Positions 2,165-37,855 of a DNA stretch of 64,000 nt are shown here, piece after piece. Position 1 is the first letter of the stretch. Every line of letters begins with the position of its first letter. This stretch comes from Meyerozyma guilliermondii (Eukaryota). The notes under the pieces are model-generated. The model was not told the DNA's origin and ran no database searches. It saw nothing but the letters and a program-made list of their open reading frames with translations. The DNA is taken from assembly GCA_051546255.1 (NCBI GenBank), contig CP128816.1:992001-1056000 (forward strand), in the 5' to 3' direction. Made by a program: the position numbers and the translations under genes.

Positions 2165-3442
2165 ATGCTGCAAGACCTCATCGATGAAGATGAAGATCAA
2201 CTACAAGATTGGAACTCGGTGCTAGGAGGAAAGTCCCTTCCGAAGCGGGGAGAAAAGGAATTTGGGCCCGATGGAACAGAAACACAATCTGATAATCTCA
2301 GCCATGCCAGAAATGCAATGTATCGTGCTCTTGAAACTCCTAGAGGACACTACTTAAAGCACAAATTGGAAGCCATATGGATGCCAGACCGCCAAATGGC
2401 CATTATTACTGCTGCTAAGGGAGGATACTTCAAGGATTTGGGCCGGCAAACAAGTTTTGGTCACCGACAGGTGATATGGCTCACTGGCGTGGAAGTCACC
2501 TATCTCGTAGAAAGAGGTTCTATGATGATATATTTGAACGATGGACAAGTCGAAGAGTACCTAGCAGGTCACGCTGACTCAATTGACTATGGAAAGCTTT
2601 TTCCCTTGAGTTTACAACACCTTTACAGTGTGGCTCTCACCGAGCCCGAATCGTTGGACAAGTACCTTGTTTACTCATATTTGAAGAGACATGGCTACCT
2701 TATCCAGGAGTTTAAGACTTTAACTGCTCCACAGTCAGAACAGCTTCAGCTGCAAAGAAAAACTCAGTTATGGGGACCATGTTCTTCATACGTAAAATCG
2801 TTCGTCCAAGGCACACACCTATTTGGAACATATCGACCTTTAAGCTTTCAAAATAAGCACATATTCAGCTACCTACTGGTTTATCGGGCTCTCAACATTG
2901 TTCCCGCTACCAGCTCTTATGACAGTTTGAGAACACTTTCGGACAGTAGCTACACTATCCACTTCAACGTCTGGAAACCACAGCCTAATTTCTCCAAGAA
3001 GAATCCACCACTACCAGACTTTCATGTTTCTGTCATTAATACCAAGAACAAGTCATTTCCTTCGTTGAAAGACATACAGCATTTGCATAACACACTCAAC
3101 CATACCATCTCCGAATCGATCAATCAGGAACCAGTTCAAATCAAGCAAACTTCAAATAAAAACCAAAGCGCTAAAAAACTACAAAGAGCACAAAAGGCCC
3201 AAGACAAGCTCTCCAAAATGAGTCTAGATGTACAGCGGAATGTCCAGTACCAAAAAGTACGCCTGAGCATGCTTAGGAACGGTCCCACTGGCAGGTCCAT
3301 AGTGCTTGCTACCATTGACGATGGCATCATTAATTTCATTACTTTGAGTGAAGCAGATTTCACATTGAGAGGAAATGCTGCTACAAAGCTCAACAGCATC
3401 AAGTACCTGGATTCTCATGGTATTATATACACAGGTACGTAA
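2165..3442 (+). CDS. SEN54: tRNA splicing endonuclease subunit Sen54
   Basis: N-terminal LPKRGEKEFGPDGT, KGGYFKDLG, EVTYLVERGSM, YLVYSYLKRHGY and FNVWKPQPNFSKKNPPLPDF motifs are typical of Sen54. Confidence 0.9.
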   Translation: MLQDLIDEDEDQLQDWNSVLGGKSLPKRGEKEFGPDGTETQSDNLSHARNAMYRALETPRGHYLKHKLEAIWMPDRQMAIITAAKGGYFKDLGRQTSFGHRQVIWLTGVEVTYLVERGSMMIYLNDGQVEEYLAGHADSIDYGKLFPLSLQHLYSVALTEPESLDKYLVYSYLKRHGYLIQEFKTLTAPQSEQLQLQRKTQLWGPCSSYVKSFVQGTHLFGTYRPLSFQNKHIFSYLLVYRALNIVPATSSYDSLRTLSDSSYTIHFNVWKPQPNFSKKNPPLPDFHVSVINTKNKSFPSLKDIQHLHNTLNHTISESINQEPVQIKQTSNKNQSAKKLQRAQKAQDKLSKMSLDVQRNVQYQKVRLSMLRNGPTGRSIVLATIDDGIINFITLSEADFTLRGNAATKLNSIKYLDSHGIIYTGT

Positions 3443-3446
3443 TAAA

Positions 3447-4694
3447 CTACCGTTTCGTCCACCTGAGTTTGTTTGTCATTAATGAACTCTGCTCCCTTAT
3501 GTCACTGAAGTAGTCAACGCATTCTTTCGACGCTTCTTTGTCAACTACCGGAGTCATAGAACAGTGTGCTAGTAACCTGTTTAGCCATGCATCGGCATCA
3601 GCCGCATTGATGCGATAATATAAAGCAAAGAATCGGTCGAATTGCTTCGCCATGAACTCTATCACCTGTGCCTCATCGGTAATCTTATACAACGAGCTGT
3701 TTGAAAGCGAGATTTTGTAGTTGTTCAAACTGAAAAGTCGAGAGAGGAGCTTGCTTCGTTCAGTCACCACTGCTTTAAGAGACTCGTTATCAAAAAGAAA
3801 CTTGTCCAAGACAATCGGTGAGTCGCCGTTATCACGGGTTATAGCACTCGCACGAGTGAGGACCTCGAAGAGAAGTTTACCCTCCAACTCATACGCCAGC
3901 ATTATGTTGTGTAAAAGGGCGATAGGTATGACTTGATTACCGTTCAATTTTTGATACCGAGTGATGAAACTTTTGAGAAATCCCTCGTCATTTGGGAGGA
4001 AACTCAATATGTTGTACTTTCCCTTGTTATTGAGAGCTTTTCCAATGGTAAATGGATTATCGATGTCAAATTTGTGTGGTTGTGGAAGCTTGATATCAGG
4101 AAACAAGTGAGTATCACGCTTTGACGATGGAGGAGTGCTAAACTCTTTTGTAACGTATCTTATATCTTTGTATAGGCGTCTCAAGCAGTGTGACTTATCC
4201 TCAAGAAAGTACAGTGCAATTGCCTGGTAGCGACCGAGGGTATTGTTTCGGTTAATGTATGGTCTTTGAAAAAAAGAGTTTTCCATGTTCATGTATGATT
4301 CGGAAGCTCGCTTGTGGAGTGCGTTGTATGATGTCTGGGGATCTTTGTGTTCATAACGAAAGAATTCTCGATCGTTCATATGTCGTATTAAAGCATAGTC
4401 AAACAAACTTTTTCCTAAAAGCTCGTAAGCGGGATCTATACTTGTTTCATCCTTTTTAGGTACAATCCTGGCGGGCGCTTTATCCGAATTAGATTCAGCA
4501 TCGTGTAAAATAGACAAGATTTTCTCCATAGTTTGGATGGAGGAATAGTCTGGAGGATCCACTATATCATTCGATACATTCTTGGAGCTGGAAAATGGTT
4601 TCTTGTATGAGTATAAGCGAGCAGAAATGAATATGGCGGGTGAAATGACGGGTGAATGGCCTAGAGGCCCTCTTGCCCAAAAAATGGGTCTCAT
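3447..4694 (-). CDS. Uncharacterised protein with a probable mitochondrial presequence and degenerate RNase III-like motifs
   Basis: 415-codon ORF from ATG 4694 (the track starts further upstream, inside UPF3). The N-terminus MRPIFWARGPLGHSPVISPAIFISARLYS is Arg/Ser-rich and acid-free. See findings. Confidence 0.7.
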   Translation of the reverse strand: MRPIFWARGPLGHSPVISPAIFISARLYSYKKPFSSSKNVSNDIVDPPDYSSIQTMEKILSILHDAESNSDKAPARIVPKKDETSIDPAYELLGKSLFDYALIRHMNDREFFRYEHKDPQTSYNALHKRASESYMNMENSFFQRPYINRNNTLGRYQAIALYFLEDKSHCLRRLYKDIRYVTKEFSTPPSSKRDTHLFPDIKLPQPHKFDIDNPFTIGKALNNKGKYNILSFLPNDEGFLKSFITRYQKLNGNQVIPIALLHNIMLAYELEGKLLFEVLTRASAITRDNGDSPIVLDKFLFDNESLKAVVTERSKLLSRLFSLNNYKISLSNSSLYKITDEAQVIEFMAKQFDRFFALYYRINAADADAWLNRLLAHCSMTPVVDKEASKECVDYFSDIREQSSLMTNKLRWTKR

Positions 4695-4764
4695 ATATCC
4701 TTCACAATTCTCAGTGGTGAGACTTGAGCATATTATAACCTGCAGGATGAAAAAGAGGAAGAGT

Positions 4765-5697
4765 TCAGGAAGTAGCATTGGTTGGTTGAGTTTGCGACCC
4801 AGCAGGTCCTTGTGGGTTCGATGGAGAGCTTGCGGGTGGTTTACCCTTTGGCTTCTTTTTGGGTGGTTTTGGTTTTTTTTTCTGGTTAATTTTGGGTGCT
4901 TTTACATCGTTCTCACCTTTATGAGAATTCTGGTTGGATTGTTGGCCGGATTGCTCACCAGAAACCAGGTCTTTGTTGGGTTGCGGTGCTTTGTTTCCTT
5001 GCTTAGCAGTTCCTGGAGCATTTTGAGGAGCCTTGGGTTTCTTTTTCTTCTTCTTTTTCTCGACAATTTTTGGATCGTTAGGTTCTTTCAGTACATCTTT
5101 GTCTTTTGGAGTTTTTGGTTTCTTGGATTTCTTTTTGGGCTTCTTGGTGGTTTCCTTTGTATCCTTGTCCTTCTCGGAGCTCTTATTTTTAGCCTTTTGG
5201 TCGGTGTTTTGGTTTTTAGCTTTGGGTTTCTTTTGCTTCTTGGGTGCTTTAAACAGATACGACTCAGTCTTTCCATCCAAAAACGCCACAAACCGCTGAA
5301 ACTGTGCAAGCTGCTCAATTGTCTTCTTCTTCTTCCTCTCCTTGAGTATCGTTCGAGGAACAGCAGCATACTCTTTATTCTCGTACAATGCCTTTCCTAT
5401 TATTGGAACACTTGCACCGTTCAGTTCCCCGTCTGAAAAAGCCTTTGCACGCAACTCCGCTTGTACCTTGGTTGCCGTATCGGCGTCTGGAACCACAAAA
5501 TACGCTCTGGAGTACGTAGGGAGTTCATATGGCTTTTCTGGATACGCTCCAGCCACATAATAGTAGTTGTTCACAAGATGCCATTGGGTAGTATATTGGG
5601 TGATTTGGGCCTCAAACTGGTCCTGGGTTAACCCTGGGGGAAGCAAACGTATTACGAGACGCACGGCTTCCGTGTGCTTGTTTGAGGGTGAACTCAT
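4765..5697 (-). CDS. UPF3: Nonsense-mediated decay factor Upf3 (Smg4/UPF3 RRM-like domain, Lys-rich tail)
   Basis: RLVIRLLPPGLTQDQF...YYYVAG...PTYSRAYF is the Upf3 N-terminal domain signature. First ATG is at 5697. Confidence 0.88.
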   Translation of the reverse strand: MSSPSNKHTEAVRLVIRLLPPGLTQDQFEAQITQYTTQWHLVNNYYYVAGAYPEKPYELPTYSRAYFVVPDADTATKVQAELRAKAFSDGELNGASVPIIGKALYENKEYAAVPRTILKERKKKKTIEQLAQFQRFVAFLDGKTESYLFKAPKKQKKPKAKNQNTDQKAKNKSSEKDKDTKETTKKPKKKSKKPKTPKDKDVLKEPNDPKIVEKKKKKKKPKAPQNAPGTAKQGNKAPQPNKDLVSGEQSGQQSNQNSHKGENDVKAPKINQKKKPKPPKKKPKGKPPASSPSNPQGPAGSQTQPTNATS

Positions 5698-31378: not shown

Positions 31379-33232
31379 ATGAGTAAGGACCTTCTTGCCT
31401 GGTGTGAGGATTTATATCCTCTCAAGGGCAATGTTTCACAACTTCAGGCCACACTTGGACTGATTCTTGCTCGGGCCCCAACTGTAGAAGAGTATAACCA
31501 GCTTCAAGCGGCACTTGACGAGCCATTGGACCACGACCACAGGCCCATGGAGTCTCGCTTGCGAACACTTATTACCCTGCCGCAACTCAAAGTAGCAGTC
31601 AGGCTCCGCACATTGTATGCCAACGGCAATTTACCGTTCTTATTGATGCTACTGAAAATCAATTTTAAGGCACCAAAAGCCGACAGGTTTGTGGGATATT
31701 TGCTTGATTATGTTCCGAAATCGACAGTCGAGGGGTTGCCGGATGCGGTGAAGAAGGGTGTCTTGAAGAAAAAGGTAAAGAGTGTTGCAAAATTCATTGC
31801 AACCTATCCTCCAACACTTCCAGTGATCATGAATACTAATCTCAGAAAACGAGTGTTTACTCACAAATCCTACCGTCAAATTTCCGACTTTTTAGAGGCC
31901 GATAGTGCTGAAGAGTTTGCCCAAGCACATAATGAAAAGCTCGTGCTTCATGGACGAAGTTTGTTGAATGTCGCCCTTTTACATTTGTTGGACAAGAAGT
32001 TCCCTAAAGCACAGGCTGAGGACATTGAGCTGATGAAGGTAAGGCTCTCTTCGTCTGTGGTTTTGACCAAAATGGCCATGGGGTACAACTTGTCACAGCA
32101 TTTGAAGCATAATATCTCGAAAGAGCTCAGTAACGAGGGAAAGGTGTTAGTGTTGCTGACAGTATTTTTAGCATACTTGGGAGCCCTTTTCTCGGAGGGC
32201 TACTCTATGGACGAAATTTGTCTCTGGATCGAAAAACTTTACGACCCAATTGTCGCTGAATTTGATTCGGAGCATATGCATTCGGCCAGACCACTTGCAT
32301 ATTCAGAACTCAAGTTTCTCCTCGATCCTCATCTCAAGTTCAAGCAGAGTGGTCACGACCCTTTTACATTCAAAGCGTATTACAGAGACACCGTGATTGG
32401 AATTGGATCTCACTCGGACAAAATGATGGCGAGGATTGTGACGCTGGAAAATGCGCTTGCCGATAAGGCACTTCTTGACGCCCTTTTGGAGCCTGAGCTA
32501 GAGTGCAAACCTAGCGATGAAAAGCATCACAAGGAGCAAAAGGAACCAACTTCTCCAGAACAGGAGCCGCCATACTCGCCGCTGCTTGAGCCCGAAACCA
32601 TGGAAAGTGTTCTTAATATTCCGGCGATAGATCAAGCACCAAGATTGCAGTCAAAGCCGCAATCGCCTCATTCACACGCTGTGCCGGAGGTGAACGCTGC
32701 GCTGAATCTAACGCGGCGTCAGGATGCTTATGAATCGCAGCCACTTAATCCAATGAATCTGCTGGTTAATTCTCAGGTCAATTCTTTGGTCAATTCCTTG
32801 GCTTATTCACAAGCCAGTCCGCATTTCCAGGCTGGTCAGACACAACTGCAAGGACTTTTTCATCAAGGACATCCTACGATTCCATCGTCGCTTCCAGCCA
32901 TTCCTCTGGTTGCACCCAATTCTTATCGGTCTCCCACTATCCCCAATCAACCATTATCCTTGCCAGGGGTTCCCAACATGACACCAAACCAATCCGGACA
33001 GGAAGCTCAAAACTCAGACTTGGTTTTAAAGAACAGTCTTCAAACAACTCTAGCTGCAAATAATCTCACACCGGAATATAACTACGAAGAAATTGGGTCA
33101 CAGTTCAAAGTTACCATTACGGTGAACGGTATAGTTCTAGCACAGTGCCAAGACTCCAACAAATCCAGAGCGACAAGAAGAGCAATACGGGGTGCGTTGA
33201 ATGCATTGAATCAAGTGACATCAAATACCTAA
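31379..33232 (+). CDS. CDL1: Catalytically degenerate RNase III / dsRBD protein (Candida Dicer-like, CDL1-type)
   Basis: Rnt1/Dcr1-like layout: PPTLPVI..RKRVFTHKSY, HNEKLVLHGRS (vs HNERLEFLGDS), LSTVFLAYLGAL (vs YADIFEAYIGAL), a degenerate dsRBD, a P/Q linker and a C-terminal dsRBD (KNSLQ...PEY...FKVTITVNG...NKSRATRRA). Confidence 0.75.
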   Translation: MSKDLLAWCEDLYPLKGNVSQLQATLGLILARAPTVEEYNQLQAALDEPLDHDHRPMESRLRTLITLPQLKVAVRLRTLYANGNLPFLLMLLKINFKAPKADRFVGYLLDYVPKSTVEGLPDAVKKGVLKKKVKSVAKFIATYPPTLPVIMNTNLRKRVFTHKSYRQISDFLEADSAEEFAQAHNEKLVLHGRSLLNVALLHLLDKKFPKAQAEDIELMKVRLSSSVVLTKMAMGYNLSQHLKHNISKELSNEGKVLVLLTVFLAYLGALFSEGYSMDEICLWIEKLYDPIVAEFDSEHMHSARPLAYSELKFLLDPHLKFKQSGHDPFTFKAYYRDTVIGIGSHSDKMMARIVTLENALADKALLDALLEPELECKPSDEKHHKEQKEPTSPEQEPPYSPLLEPETMESVLNIPAIDQAPRLQSKPQSPHSHAVPEVNAALNLTRRQDAYESQPLNPMNLLVNSQVNSLVNSLAYSQASPHFQAGQTQLQGLFHQGHPTIPSSLPAIPLVAPNSYRSPTIPNQPLSLPGVPNMTPNQSGQEAQNSDLVLKNSLQTTLAANNLTPEYNYEEIGSQFKVTITVNGIVLAQCQDSNKSRATRRAIRGALNALNQVTSNT

Positions 33233-36976: not shown

Positions 36977-37855
36977 ATGGGTTCCAGAGTATCTACGAGA
37001 AGGTTGCCTGAAACCGCCTCTAAGGCAGTGAATGCGAAGAAATCTTCAATAGTTAATCAACTTCCAACTCAATCATTAAAAAACAGCTATGAAAAGCACT
37101 CGCAAGAGGAAATGCAAAGACAAGCATTTTTGGATCCCAAGCAAGAAGGACACCTGAAGAATGATGAAACTTCAAAGAAAGAGACGTCAGAAGGCGGAAG
37201 CACACAGCTGCATAGTCAATTATCGCAAAATAACACTCAAAGTTTCGGAAGTTCGGGTCGTCGAACAGACATTGCAACAAGTTCGAATAACGTTCCGGAA
37301 GGCAAAGATGGGTATGACCCTCAAGTGTCACCAGAGCAGGAGAAGTATTTCATTGATTCTATAACCCAGCTTGGAAAGCAAGTTCATTCTACGTCGCAAA
37401 CAGCAAGGTCCAGACCAGATTCAATGGCATTAAAGCAACTCCAATTCCGCAAAAGTCTCTTTCAAAAGGGCCAAAAAGAGCTCGAACAGCAAAAAGATCC
37501 ACAAGGACCCATGATGAGCGGCGGAGCCAACGGTGGTGGTTCGGTCGAACGTACCATGATTCATCCAAGAACATTGGGAGCAATATTGAAAGATCTCGAA
37601 GATCCCCGGACGACCAAATCCATGATTTTGGAGGACTATCAGCTTGCTCCTGGCTTTCTCAGTGGTTTAGAACGGTTTAGAGTTGCATCTACTGTTTATA
37701 TTGAACCAAAGGAAGATAAAGAGGGTGAAATTGCTCCGGCCGTAGGTGAACCAGAAAGGACTTTATTAGACTACGACGGAGCTGGAGAGGTGGGCGAAAA
37801 AATGGACCAACAGAGAGTCGAAAAACTCAAGAGCAGGCTCGGTATGGATGAGTAA
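36977..37855 (+). CDS. Uncharacterised protein, weak resemblance to NDUFAF4
   Basis: 292-aa ORF with an MGS N-terminus. See findings. Confidence 0.7.
   Translation: MGSRVSTRRLPETASKAVNAKKSSIVNQLPTQSLKNSYEKHSQEEMQRQAFLDPKQEGHLKNDETSKKETSEGGSTQLHSQLSQNNTQSFGSSGRRTDIATSSNNVPEGKDGYDPQVSPEQEKYFIDSITQLGKQVHSTSQTARSRPDSMALKQLQFRKSLFQKGQKELEQQKDPQGPMMSGGANGGGSVERTMIHPRTLGAILKDLEDPRTTKSMILEDYQLAPGFLSGLERFRVASTVYIEPKEDKEGEIAPAVGEPERTLLDYDGAGEVGEKMDQQRVEKLKSRLGMDE

What the first reader, a model, noticed from the sequence alone, without database searches (positions are those of the whole stretch)
3447..4694. Orphan, probably mitochondrial, protein with tandem degenerate RNase III-like domains
The C-terminal half follows the RNase III helix order by eye. 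LPNDEGFLKSFITRYQ resembles '..D..LL..ALTH.SY', and HNIM(S)AYELEGKLLFEVL (~3858-3910) resembles NERLEFLGDAVLEL. FLFDNESLKAVV resembles 'ALVSNESLAEIA', and FMAKQFDRFFALYYRINAADADAWLNRLL resembles 'ILADVFEALIGAIYLD.G...AREFIERLL'. A second signature-like copy, PAYELLGKSLFDYAL (~4390-4435), lies N-terminally, so a single-chain pseudo-dimer is possible. The GD aspartate is K in both copies, implying no catalysis. With its presequence-like N-terminus it may be a lineage-specific mitochondrial dsRNA-binding, RNA-maturation or mitoribosome-associated factor distinct from mL44/mL57. I do not recognise a named gene.
Basis: inference. Interest (0 to 1): 0.7.

Follow-up and report, generated by a model that had tools for sequence, protein, structure and literature searches.

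The report
Hidden dead double-RNase III yeast protein
A yeast gene with no database family folds, in prediction, like the two-domain RNA-cutting core of Dicer but lacks the cutting residues and probably goes to mitochondria, so it is a candidate new kind of helper for mitochondrial RNA in Candida-related yeasts.

Summary
ORF 3447-4694 (-) encodes a conserved 415-aa protein of CUG-Ser yeasts. No family member tested has a meaningful Pfam, NCBIfam or PDB sequence hit. An AlphaFold model (pLDDT 82) matches RNase III structures ahead of all else: Drosha Z 14.4, 256 residues across both halves; the top 18 rows are all RNase III, Dicer or Drosha. The N-terminal half folded alone also ranks RNase IIIs first (Z 9.2, weaker). 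Foldseek found nothing at E<=0.001. No homolog keeps all four catalytic acids in either domain (0 of 41, 0 of 43), and the model has no dsRBD. N-termini look like presequences in 25 of 33 homologs versus 4 of 32 controls; this protein itself fails that crude test. mL44, mL57, Dcr1 and Cdl1 are separate genes in this genome. Gene order is conserved in a second yeast family. Best reading: a single-chain, catalytically dead RNase III pseudo-dimer that binds structured mitochondrial RNA, like plant RNC1. Location and RNA binding are inferred, not shown. No C. albicans ortholog was identified, so a named gene is not excluded. A second RNase III-like gene that keeps its acids lies elsewhere in the genome.

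The parts
3447..4694 (-). ORF, 415 aa under table 12 (P0001); single copy found in the genome
   Evidence: own-genome search gave 1 match from 1 candidate; 41 hits at E<=0.001 among 1.84 billion representatives, 2 of them repeat proteins judged spurious
4560..4694 (-). Disordered N-terminal leader, residues 1-45; candidate mitochondrial presequence
   Evidence: pLDDT<50 for residues 1-50; 25 of 33 homologs pass a basic/no-acid test versus 4 of 32 window ORFs; P0001 has 2 Arg and 0 acids in 25 residues and fails the threshold
4491..4559 (-). Conserved amphipathic helix, residues 46-68, outside the RNase III match; probable docking element (inference)
   Evidence: mean pairwise identity 0.495 versus 0.204 (domain a) and 0.272 (domain b); M56 in 41 of 41; helix 51-68 in the model
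4140..4445 (-). RNase III-like domain a, residues about 84-185; begins at the signature helix; catalytic acids absent
   Evidence: folded alone pLDDT 85; best match Mini-III 4oun Z 9.2, rmsd 3.3, 97 aligned; 13 of the top 17 rows named RNase III/Dicer; matches start at residue 34-35 of the E. coli and Aquifex enzymes; G94 in 41 of 41
3540..4109 (-). RNase III-like domain b, residues about 196-385; full-length nuclease fold, catalytic set incomplete
   Evidence: T. maritima RNase III Z 10.9, rmsd 3.4, 156 aligned; hhalign 71% to the Dcr1/Cdl1/L006 profile; G272 43 of 43, K307 44 of 44, W370 44 of 44
3870..3902 (-). Degenerate signature of domain b (residues 265-275); catalytic Asp position is K273
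3636..3650 (-). Second acidic cluster of domain b (residues 349-353), in register with Dcr1 ADLFE; D107 site is K, E110 site is D
   Evidence: D 30, N 12, E 0 of 44 at position 353
3453..3539 (-). C-terminal helix, residues 386-414; no dsRBD follows
   Evidence: all-helical model with no strands; 30 residues after domain b here, 20-116 in the 44 rows
2165..3442 (+). SEN54, convergent neighbour; the two stop codons are 4 nt apart
   Evidence: PF12928 E 1.9e-19; same arrangement in L011
4765..5697 (-). UPF3, upstream neighbour on the same strand, ending 70 nt before the ATG
   Evidence: PF03467 E 1.5e-18; same arrangement in L011

Best explanation
A nuclear-encoded mitochondrial matrix pseudoenzyme of CUG-Ser (Serinales) yeasts. 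After import, two RNase III-like domains in one chain fold into an intramolecular dimer like the Dicer/Drosha core. The metal-binding acids are lost, so it does not cut. It most likely grips a structured stretch of a mitochondrial RNA (intron, UTR or duplex) with the basic residues it has kept. It would then hand that RNA to splicing, stabilising or translation partners through its conserved N-terminal helix, so that one or a few respiratory-chain genes are expressed. Shown computationally: gene, family, fold, loss of acids. Inferred: location (likely). Inferred more weakly: RNA binding and a role in mitochondrial gene expression.
For: Fold. No canonical catalysis: 0 of 43 rows have 4 acids in domain b (6 have 3) and 0 of 41 in domain a (2 have 2; 0 of 39 have more than 1 in the alternative register), while own Dcr1 has all four. 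Targeting: 25 of 33 versus 4 of 32. Conserved basic sites in domain b: K/R at 281 (93%), 307 (100%), 319 (98%), 354 (82%), 361 (80%); net charge of residues 84-385 is positive in 30 of 42 rows. Precedent: maize RNC1 has two inactive RNase III domains, binds RNA and promotes chloroplast group II intron splicing (PMC9275481, passages). CUG-clade yeasts have clade-specific, low-abundance, non-structural expression factors for complexes I, III and IV (PMC6593398). tRNA punctuation explains all cleavages of C. albicans mitochondrial transcripts, so no further endonuclease is needed there (PMC4618339, passages).
Against: No experiment or expression data. Foldseek gave no hit at E<=0.001 (best Dicer-family row E 0.39), and the tool warns that Z under about 13 can be a common arrangement for helical proteins; the best values are 14.4-14.8 at rmsd 4.6-4.7. 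P0001 itself fails the presequence test, and related rows are not independent. There is no dsRBD, domain a is truncated and poorly conserved (20%), and net charge is zero or negative in 12 of 42 rows, all of which weaken RNA binding. I could not see whether the basic residues line the RNA valley, because no coordinates were available. Domains a and b show no sequence similarity to each other (probability 1.6%).
Confidence: 0.5

Rival explanations
1. The RNase III fold is only a scaffold: the protein binds other proteins, not RNA, for example as an assembly factor of a respiratory complex.
For: The best-conserved part is a helix outside the RNase III match. No dsRBD; net charge is not positive in 12 of 42 rows. 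A chain of a Toxoplasma pre-conoid ring (9ya0_DA, Z 6.6) ranks among the RNase IIIs, a hint that this fold can be used structurally.
Against: Several basic positions are nearly invariant. The dead organellar RNase IIIs I know of contact RNA (RNC1; mL44/mL57 and KREPB proteins recalled).
Confidence: 0.2
2. A clade-specific mitoribosomal subunit or mitoribosome assembly factor that binds rRNA helices, acting alongside the mL44/mL57 pair.
For: Mitoribosome chains match both halves (3j6b_5 Z 7.7 for domain b and Z 8.4 at rmsd 11.3 for domain a). The domain a signature aligns in register with that of mL44, without significance.
Against: mL44 and mL57 are present as separate genes (L003, L005), and the family profile does not recognise them (E 230 and 500). 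Within one order, domain a is only 20% and domain b 27% identical on average, fast for a ribosomal subunit (inference).
Confidence: 0.15
3. An active but non-canonical nuclease: domain b cuts or nicks RNA using a remodelled site (E271, D353, D236, K307).
For: E271 is kept in 40 of 43, D/N353 in 42 of 44 and D236 in 36 of 43; 6 of 43 rows have three acids at canonical sites.
Against: The essential signature Asp is D in 1 of 43; position 353 is N in 12 of 44 and never E; the E40-equivalent is E in only 19 of 43. E271 sits at the normally buried Leu position (recalled).
Confidence: 0.07
4. The RNase III match is an artefact of a helical-bundle prediction and the protein is unrelated.
For: No Pfam RNase III hit among 38 members at E<=1, no PDB sequence hit with the profile, no Foldseek hit at E<=0.001.
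Against: The ranking is coherent for the whole protein and for domain a alone. In one search ranks 1-25 are all RNase III family (Z 14.8-8.3) and the next row is Z 4.5. The invariant glycines fall on the signature glycine, and the profile match beats 60 of 60 shuffles.
Confidence: 0.05

Closest known systems
Drosha/Dicer RNase IIIa-IIIb core (9asm, 5b16, 2ffl)
   Same: Two RNase III domains in one chain forming an intramolecular dimer; Z 12-14.8 over 220-260 residues.
   Different: No PAZ, helicase or dsRBD; catalytic acids lost; domain a truncated; about 10% identity; presequence-like leader.
Plant chloroplast RNC1
   Same: Organellar protein with two RNase III domains that lack catalytic residues (PMC9275481, passages); closest functional model.
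   Different: Chloroplast and plant-specific, works with WTF1. No homology to this family was tested; probably an independent invention (inference).
Mitoribosomal mL44 (Mrpl3) and mL57 (Mrpl15)
   Same: Mitochondrial, catalytically dead RNase III folds; structural matches Z 7.5-8.5 (chain identities recalled).
   Different: Each has one RNase III domain and a Pfam hit, and both have their own genes in this genome.
Candida Dcr1 and Cdl1
   Same: Domain b aligns end to end with their nuclease domain, including the N-terminal LP..I.D segment. Cdl1 is also inactive (PMC3579876).
   Different: They have one RNase III domain plus an N-terminal domain and dsRBDs, and no presequence-like start; both are separate genes here (L002, L004).
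CTG-clade-specific mitochondrial expression factors (GOA1, NUE1, QCE1, COE1, COE2)
   Same: Clade-restricted, predicted mitochondrial, no recognised family when described (PMC6593398).
   Different: No sequence link could be made. None carries the orf19 number next after SEN54 (orf19.7361). Orthology after a gene move is not excluded.

Membership tests
RNase III superfamily (fold) | All-helical endonuclease-domain fold | tested here: met
   On predicted models: domain b Z up to 10.9, domain a alone Z up to 9.2; Foldseek not significant
RNase III superfamily (fold) | Signature glycine helix followed by the later ADxFE helix in register | tested here: met
   G94 41 of 41, G272 43 of 43, F352 43 of 44; register of domain b from hhalign; register of domain a's second cluster uncertain by one residue
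RNase III superfamily (fold) | Pfam PF00636 or PF14622 match | tested here: not met
   0 of 38 members at E<=1; the own-genome family searches did not list this gene
Active RNase III enzymes | Four metal-binding acids (E40, D44, D107, E110; Aquifex numbering recalled) | tested here: not met
   0 of 41 (domain a) and 0 of 43 (domain b) have all four; own Dcr1 has them
Active RNase III enzymes | dsRNA cleavage | not testable with these tools
   needs an assay
Dicer/Drosha | Tandem RNase III domains in one chain | tested here: met
   single alignments span residues 74-388 across both domains
Dicer/Drosha | dsRBD and PAZ/platform or helicase domains | tested here: not met
   415 aa, no beta strands in the model; no Pfam hit
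mL44 / mL57 | Orthology: being the genome's PF22935/PF14622 gene | tested here: not met
   those hits are L003 and L005; the family profile scores them at E 230 and 500
mL44 / mL57 | Presence in the mitoribosome | not testable with these tools
   needs fractionation or cryo-EM
Cdl1 / Dcr1 / Rnt1 | RNase_3_N domain, one RNase III domain and dsRBDs | tested here: not met
   L002 and L004 have these; P0001 has none by Pfam; its N-helix profile scores at most 3.3% against them
Plant RNC1 | Sequence homology to RNC1 and group II intron binding | not tested
   no RNC1 sequence was in hand; compared from the review text only
Named CTG-specific mitochondrial genes of C. albicans (GOA1 and others) | Orthology to one of the 29 genes in Table 1 of PMC6593398 | tested here: inconclusive
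   no C. albicans-labelled member in 30 clusters looked up; DEHA2B11770 not found in main texts or in the supplements searched for it

The most novel reading that the evidence does not exclude
Budding yeasts lost canonical Dicer, yet the CUG-Ser lineage holds, or rebuilt, minimal single-chain Dicer-core proteins and sent them to mitochondria. This gene is the fully dead RNA-binding form. The 474-aa gene at L006, whose C-terminal domain keeps all four acids while its N-terminal copy looks dead, is a half-active, strand-nicking form. Together they would be an unrecognised system that handles double-stranded or structured mitochondrial RNA in the Candida-related yeasts.
Probability: 0.15. Interest if true: 0.8.

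Novelty: new variant of a known kind. Interest (0 to 1): 0.55.

Why it matters
The two papers I read on Candida-clade RNase III genes count only Dcr1 and Cdl1 (PMC3579876, PMC11047096; passages). A conserved family invisible to Pfam, with the Dicer/Drosha core fold, would add a non-PPR class of mitochondrial RNA factor to a clade whose respiration depends on clade-specific genes. It would be a fungal parallel to plant RNC1, that is, repeated co-option of dead tandem RNase III domains in organelles. It gives a direct test (deletion, mitochondrial RNA-seq, CLIP) and a fold to look for among the unexplained clade-specific mitochondrial genes. It would matter less if the gene proves dispensable or is an already named gene.

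Tried and rejected
Sequence-level naming failed: Pfam 0 families for P0001; for 38 members only single-member noise in Pfam (best E 0.0038) and NCBIfam (best E 0.0016); PDB sequences best E 0.45, 0.84 and none. Foldseek: 0 matches at E<=0.001. GOA1/NUE identity: primer translations from a supplement of PMC6593398 were compared by eye with homologs and gave no convincing match; this is not a real test. orf19.5274 was checked as a possible syntenic ortholog and rejected: 1,021 aa, PH domain, Skg3-like. A paper search for UPF3 with orf19 found nothing. Profile searches of the word-indexed database were insensitive: 6 hits among 8,000 capped candidates and 5 among 4,587. Paralogy with L006 is not shown: whole-protein probability 12.6% on 31 columns, global 0.4%, domain b alone 37%. 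An a-versus-b internal repeat was not detected (1.6%). A relic of the Rnt1 N-terminal domain in the conserved helix was not supported. The tree is the quick version only, with 15 of 40 inner branches open; no origin was read from it. Earlier scan notes: nothing returned. No expression data and no language-model look-alike search are part of this report, so the transcript start and distant relatives stay open. No complex prediction was run.

Full report
1. The gene. Window 3447-4694 (-) is an uninterrupted ORF of 415 codons; under table 12 two CTG codons read Ser. It lies between SEN54 (convergent, stops 4 nt apart) and UPF3 (same strand, ending 70 nt upstream), named by Pfam. An in-frame ATG at 4778 gives 443 aa but overlaps the end of UPF3 and starts without basic residues; the closest relative starts at the 4694 Met. 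The genome (10.66 Mb, 8 contigs) gave one match to the protein. The nearest named relative is Meyerozyma sp. JA9, in a cluster whose representative is 85% identical, so the host is probably a Meyerozyma (inference).

2. The family. phmmer over 1.84 billion representatives returned 41 proteins at E<=0.001. I dropped two repeat proteins (P0035, P0037), one fragment (P0036) and the near-identical P0002. With relatives this gave 38 rows in A2 and 44 rows in the script alignment. Of 30 clusters looked up, 7 carry an organism name: Debaryomyces, Millerozyma, Candidozyma haemuli, Sungouiella intermedia, [Candida] anglica, Suhomyces and Meyerozyma. All are Serinales, from two families. The other 23 are unlabelled, and the searches are not sensitive enough to prove absence elsewhere. 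L011 carries a 27%-identical homolog matching the S. intermedia cluster, in the same order as here: F-box-like, PCI, UPF3-like, this gene, SEN54-like, then a PQ-loop-like gene also seen in L012 (L011 and L012 neighbours named by eye). This supports orthology across two families.

3. The fold. No family or PDB sequence search names it. AlphaFold2 with A2 gave mean pLDDT 82.4 and pTM 0.77, all helical, with residues 1-50 disordered. Foldseek found 0 matches at E<=0.001, though its highest-probability rows were Dicers (0.41-0.87). VIA-align against 48,161 chains ranked Drosha first (9asm, Z 14.4, rmsd 4.6, 256 aligned, residues 74-382). Of the top 30 rows, 23 are named RNase III/Dicer/Drosha/ribonuclease, 5 are mitoribosome or editosome chains (RNase III folds by my recall) and 2 are not named by fold; rank 31 is Sld7 at Z 6.1. 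Single-domain RNase IIIs cover residues 196-385, tandem enzymes cover both halves. The second look at 990 Foldseek-ranked chains gave 25 RNase III-family rows at Z 14.8-8.3 and then a drop to 4.5. Residues 46-195 folded alone (pLDDT 85) matched Mini-III best (Z 9.2, rmsd 3.3, 97 aligned), with 13 of the top 17 rows named RNase III/Dicer and the first clearly unrelated row at Z 6.2. That Z is inside the range the tool calls common, so domain a rests on the coherent ranking. It lacks the first 33 or so residues of a bacterial nuclease domain. A sequence-level check on domain b gave hhalign probability 71% over 138 colinear columns against a profile of this genome's Dcr1, Cdl1 and L006 domains; 0 of 60 column shuffles reached the score. 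I chose those templates and boundaries after forming the hypothesis.

4. Catalysis. With the register, the four canonical acid sites of domain b are 269, 273, 350 and 353. Rows with 0, 1, 2, 3 and 4 acids number 3, 19, 15, 6 and 0 of 43. For domain a the counts are 20, 19, 2, 0 and 0 of 41; in the alternative register they are 27 and 12 of 39 with 0 or 1. The signature Asp is kept in 1 of 41 and 1 of 43. Own Dcr1 has all four. Against a purely dead reading, E271 (40 of 43) and D/N353 (42 of 44) are strongly conserved. Residue roles and Aquifex numbering are recalled.

5. Location. In the first 25 residues, 25 of 33 members with a full leader have net charge >=3 and at most one acid, against 4 of 32 other window ORFs (Fisher p 2.6e-7; rows are related and the threshold is mine). 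P0001 fails with 2 Arg and no acid, own mL57 passes, and own mL44 read from its first ATG fails. This is suggestive only.

6. Not one of the known ones. PF00636 and PF14622 searches of the genome listed five genes: L002 Dcr1-like, L003 mL44, L004 Cdl1-like (inside this window), L005 mL57-like and L006 (names inferred from the Pfam domains). The family profile recognises none (best E 0.73 for L006).

7. Residues 46-68 are the best-conserved part (0.495 mean identity, against 0.204 and 0.272 for the domains) and lie outside the RNase III match, joined by a low-confidence linker. I read them as a partner-docking helix (inference). The NESL resemblance is chance; the true counterpart is the invariant K307 helix. 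No dsRBD is present.

8. Mechanism. Most likely (0.5) it is imported, folds as a one-chain pseudo-dimer, binds a structured mitochondrial RNA without cutting, and recruits a partner, as RNC1 does for chloroplast introns (PMC9275481, six passages). Context: clade-specific non-structural expression factors are known in C. albicans (PMC6593398; I read parts 1-3 of 8, search passages and one supplement), and tRNA punctuation accounts for transcript cleavage there (PMC4618339, passages). Rivals are a protein scaffold (0.2), a mitoribosome factor (0.15), a non-canonical nuclease (0.07) and an artefact (0.05). Whether the ancestor was a duplicated Rnt1/Dcr1-type domain or a remnant of canonical Dicer cannot be told. 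Domain b aligns end to end with the Dcr1 type, but no Dicer profile was compared.

9. Is it in print? Searches for RNase III with mitochondria and Candida and for the D. hansenii locus tag returned no paper describing such a protein, judged from the listings. PMC3579876 (part 1 of 3, plus a term search with no hit for 'mitochond' or 'tandem') and PMC11047096 (passages) list only Dcr1 and Cdl1. The library lacks most subscription journals. In C. albicans SGF11 is orf19.7360 and SEN54 is orf19.7361 (supplement rows); orf19.7362 is not in the Sun table. Supplement searches found no DEHA2B11770 in PMC6593398, PMC8966029, PMC12542653, PMC6212825 or PMC8586148, and none of the neighbour gene names in PMC12862490. 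Several of these held only small files and one PDF was unreadable, so whole-genome tables that I could not see may name the ortholog. PMC9575988, PMC12135193 and PMC3851762 were seen as passages.

10. Verdict. A real, conserved, apparently lineage-restricted RNase III pseudoenzyme with a Dicer/Drosha-like tandem core that sequence methods miss. It works like an RNC1-type factor by inference, and it is not a member of the active RNase III, Dicer, mL44/mL57 or Cdl1 families. New variant of a known kind; interest 0.55.

Noticed in passing
L006:574-1998 (+) (= L013:5835-7259): A 474-aa ORF with a weak PF00636 hit (E 0.01). Its C-terminal RNase III domain keeps acids at all four catalytic sites (LDGLGD, ADYFEQ), and an N-terminal signature-like copy (LYLLGS) looks dead by eye. 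It may be a second single-chain tandem RNase III, half active. It lies between a cyclin-like and a NET1-like ORF (by eye). By recall this is the C. albicans orf19.265 ortholog, a clade-specific predicted mitochondrial gene not among those needed on glycerol and listed as RNA-binding. The orthology was not tested.
   Followed up: partly
window 31379-33232 (+): CDL1-like inactive RNase III gene (RNase_3_N, degenerate HNEKLVLHGR signature, dsRBD) in the same window, about 27 kb from the finding.
   Followed up: partly
window 4695-4778 (-): Public sources hold a 443-aa version starting at ATG 4778, overlapping the UPF3 stop; this would hide the presequence-like leader from predictors.
   Followed up: yes
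window 3442-3447 and 4694-4765: Very tight packing: 4 nt between the convergent stops with SEN54 and 70 nt after UPF3, so 3' UTRs must overlap and the promoter probably lies within UPF3. In L011 the homolog overlaps the end of the SEN54-like ORF by about 50 nt.
   Followed up: no
window 4627-5436 (+): A 269-codon hydrophobic ORF antisense to the Lys-rich part of UPF3; probably a shadow frame.
   Followed up: no
window 36977-37855 (+): A 292-aa ORF with a basic, presequence-like start beside an RPA34-like gene; by recalled gene order it could be the ortholog of clade-specific orf19.4895.
   Followed up: no
P0015, P0019, P0020, P0029, P0033, P0042: One clade of the family, including Suhomyces, carries a long insertion (about 70-150 aa in the five rows of A2) between the signature helix and the K307 helix of domain b.
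   Followed up: no
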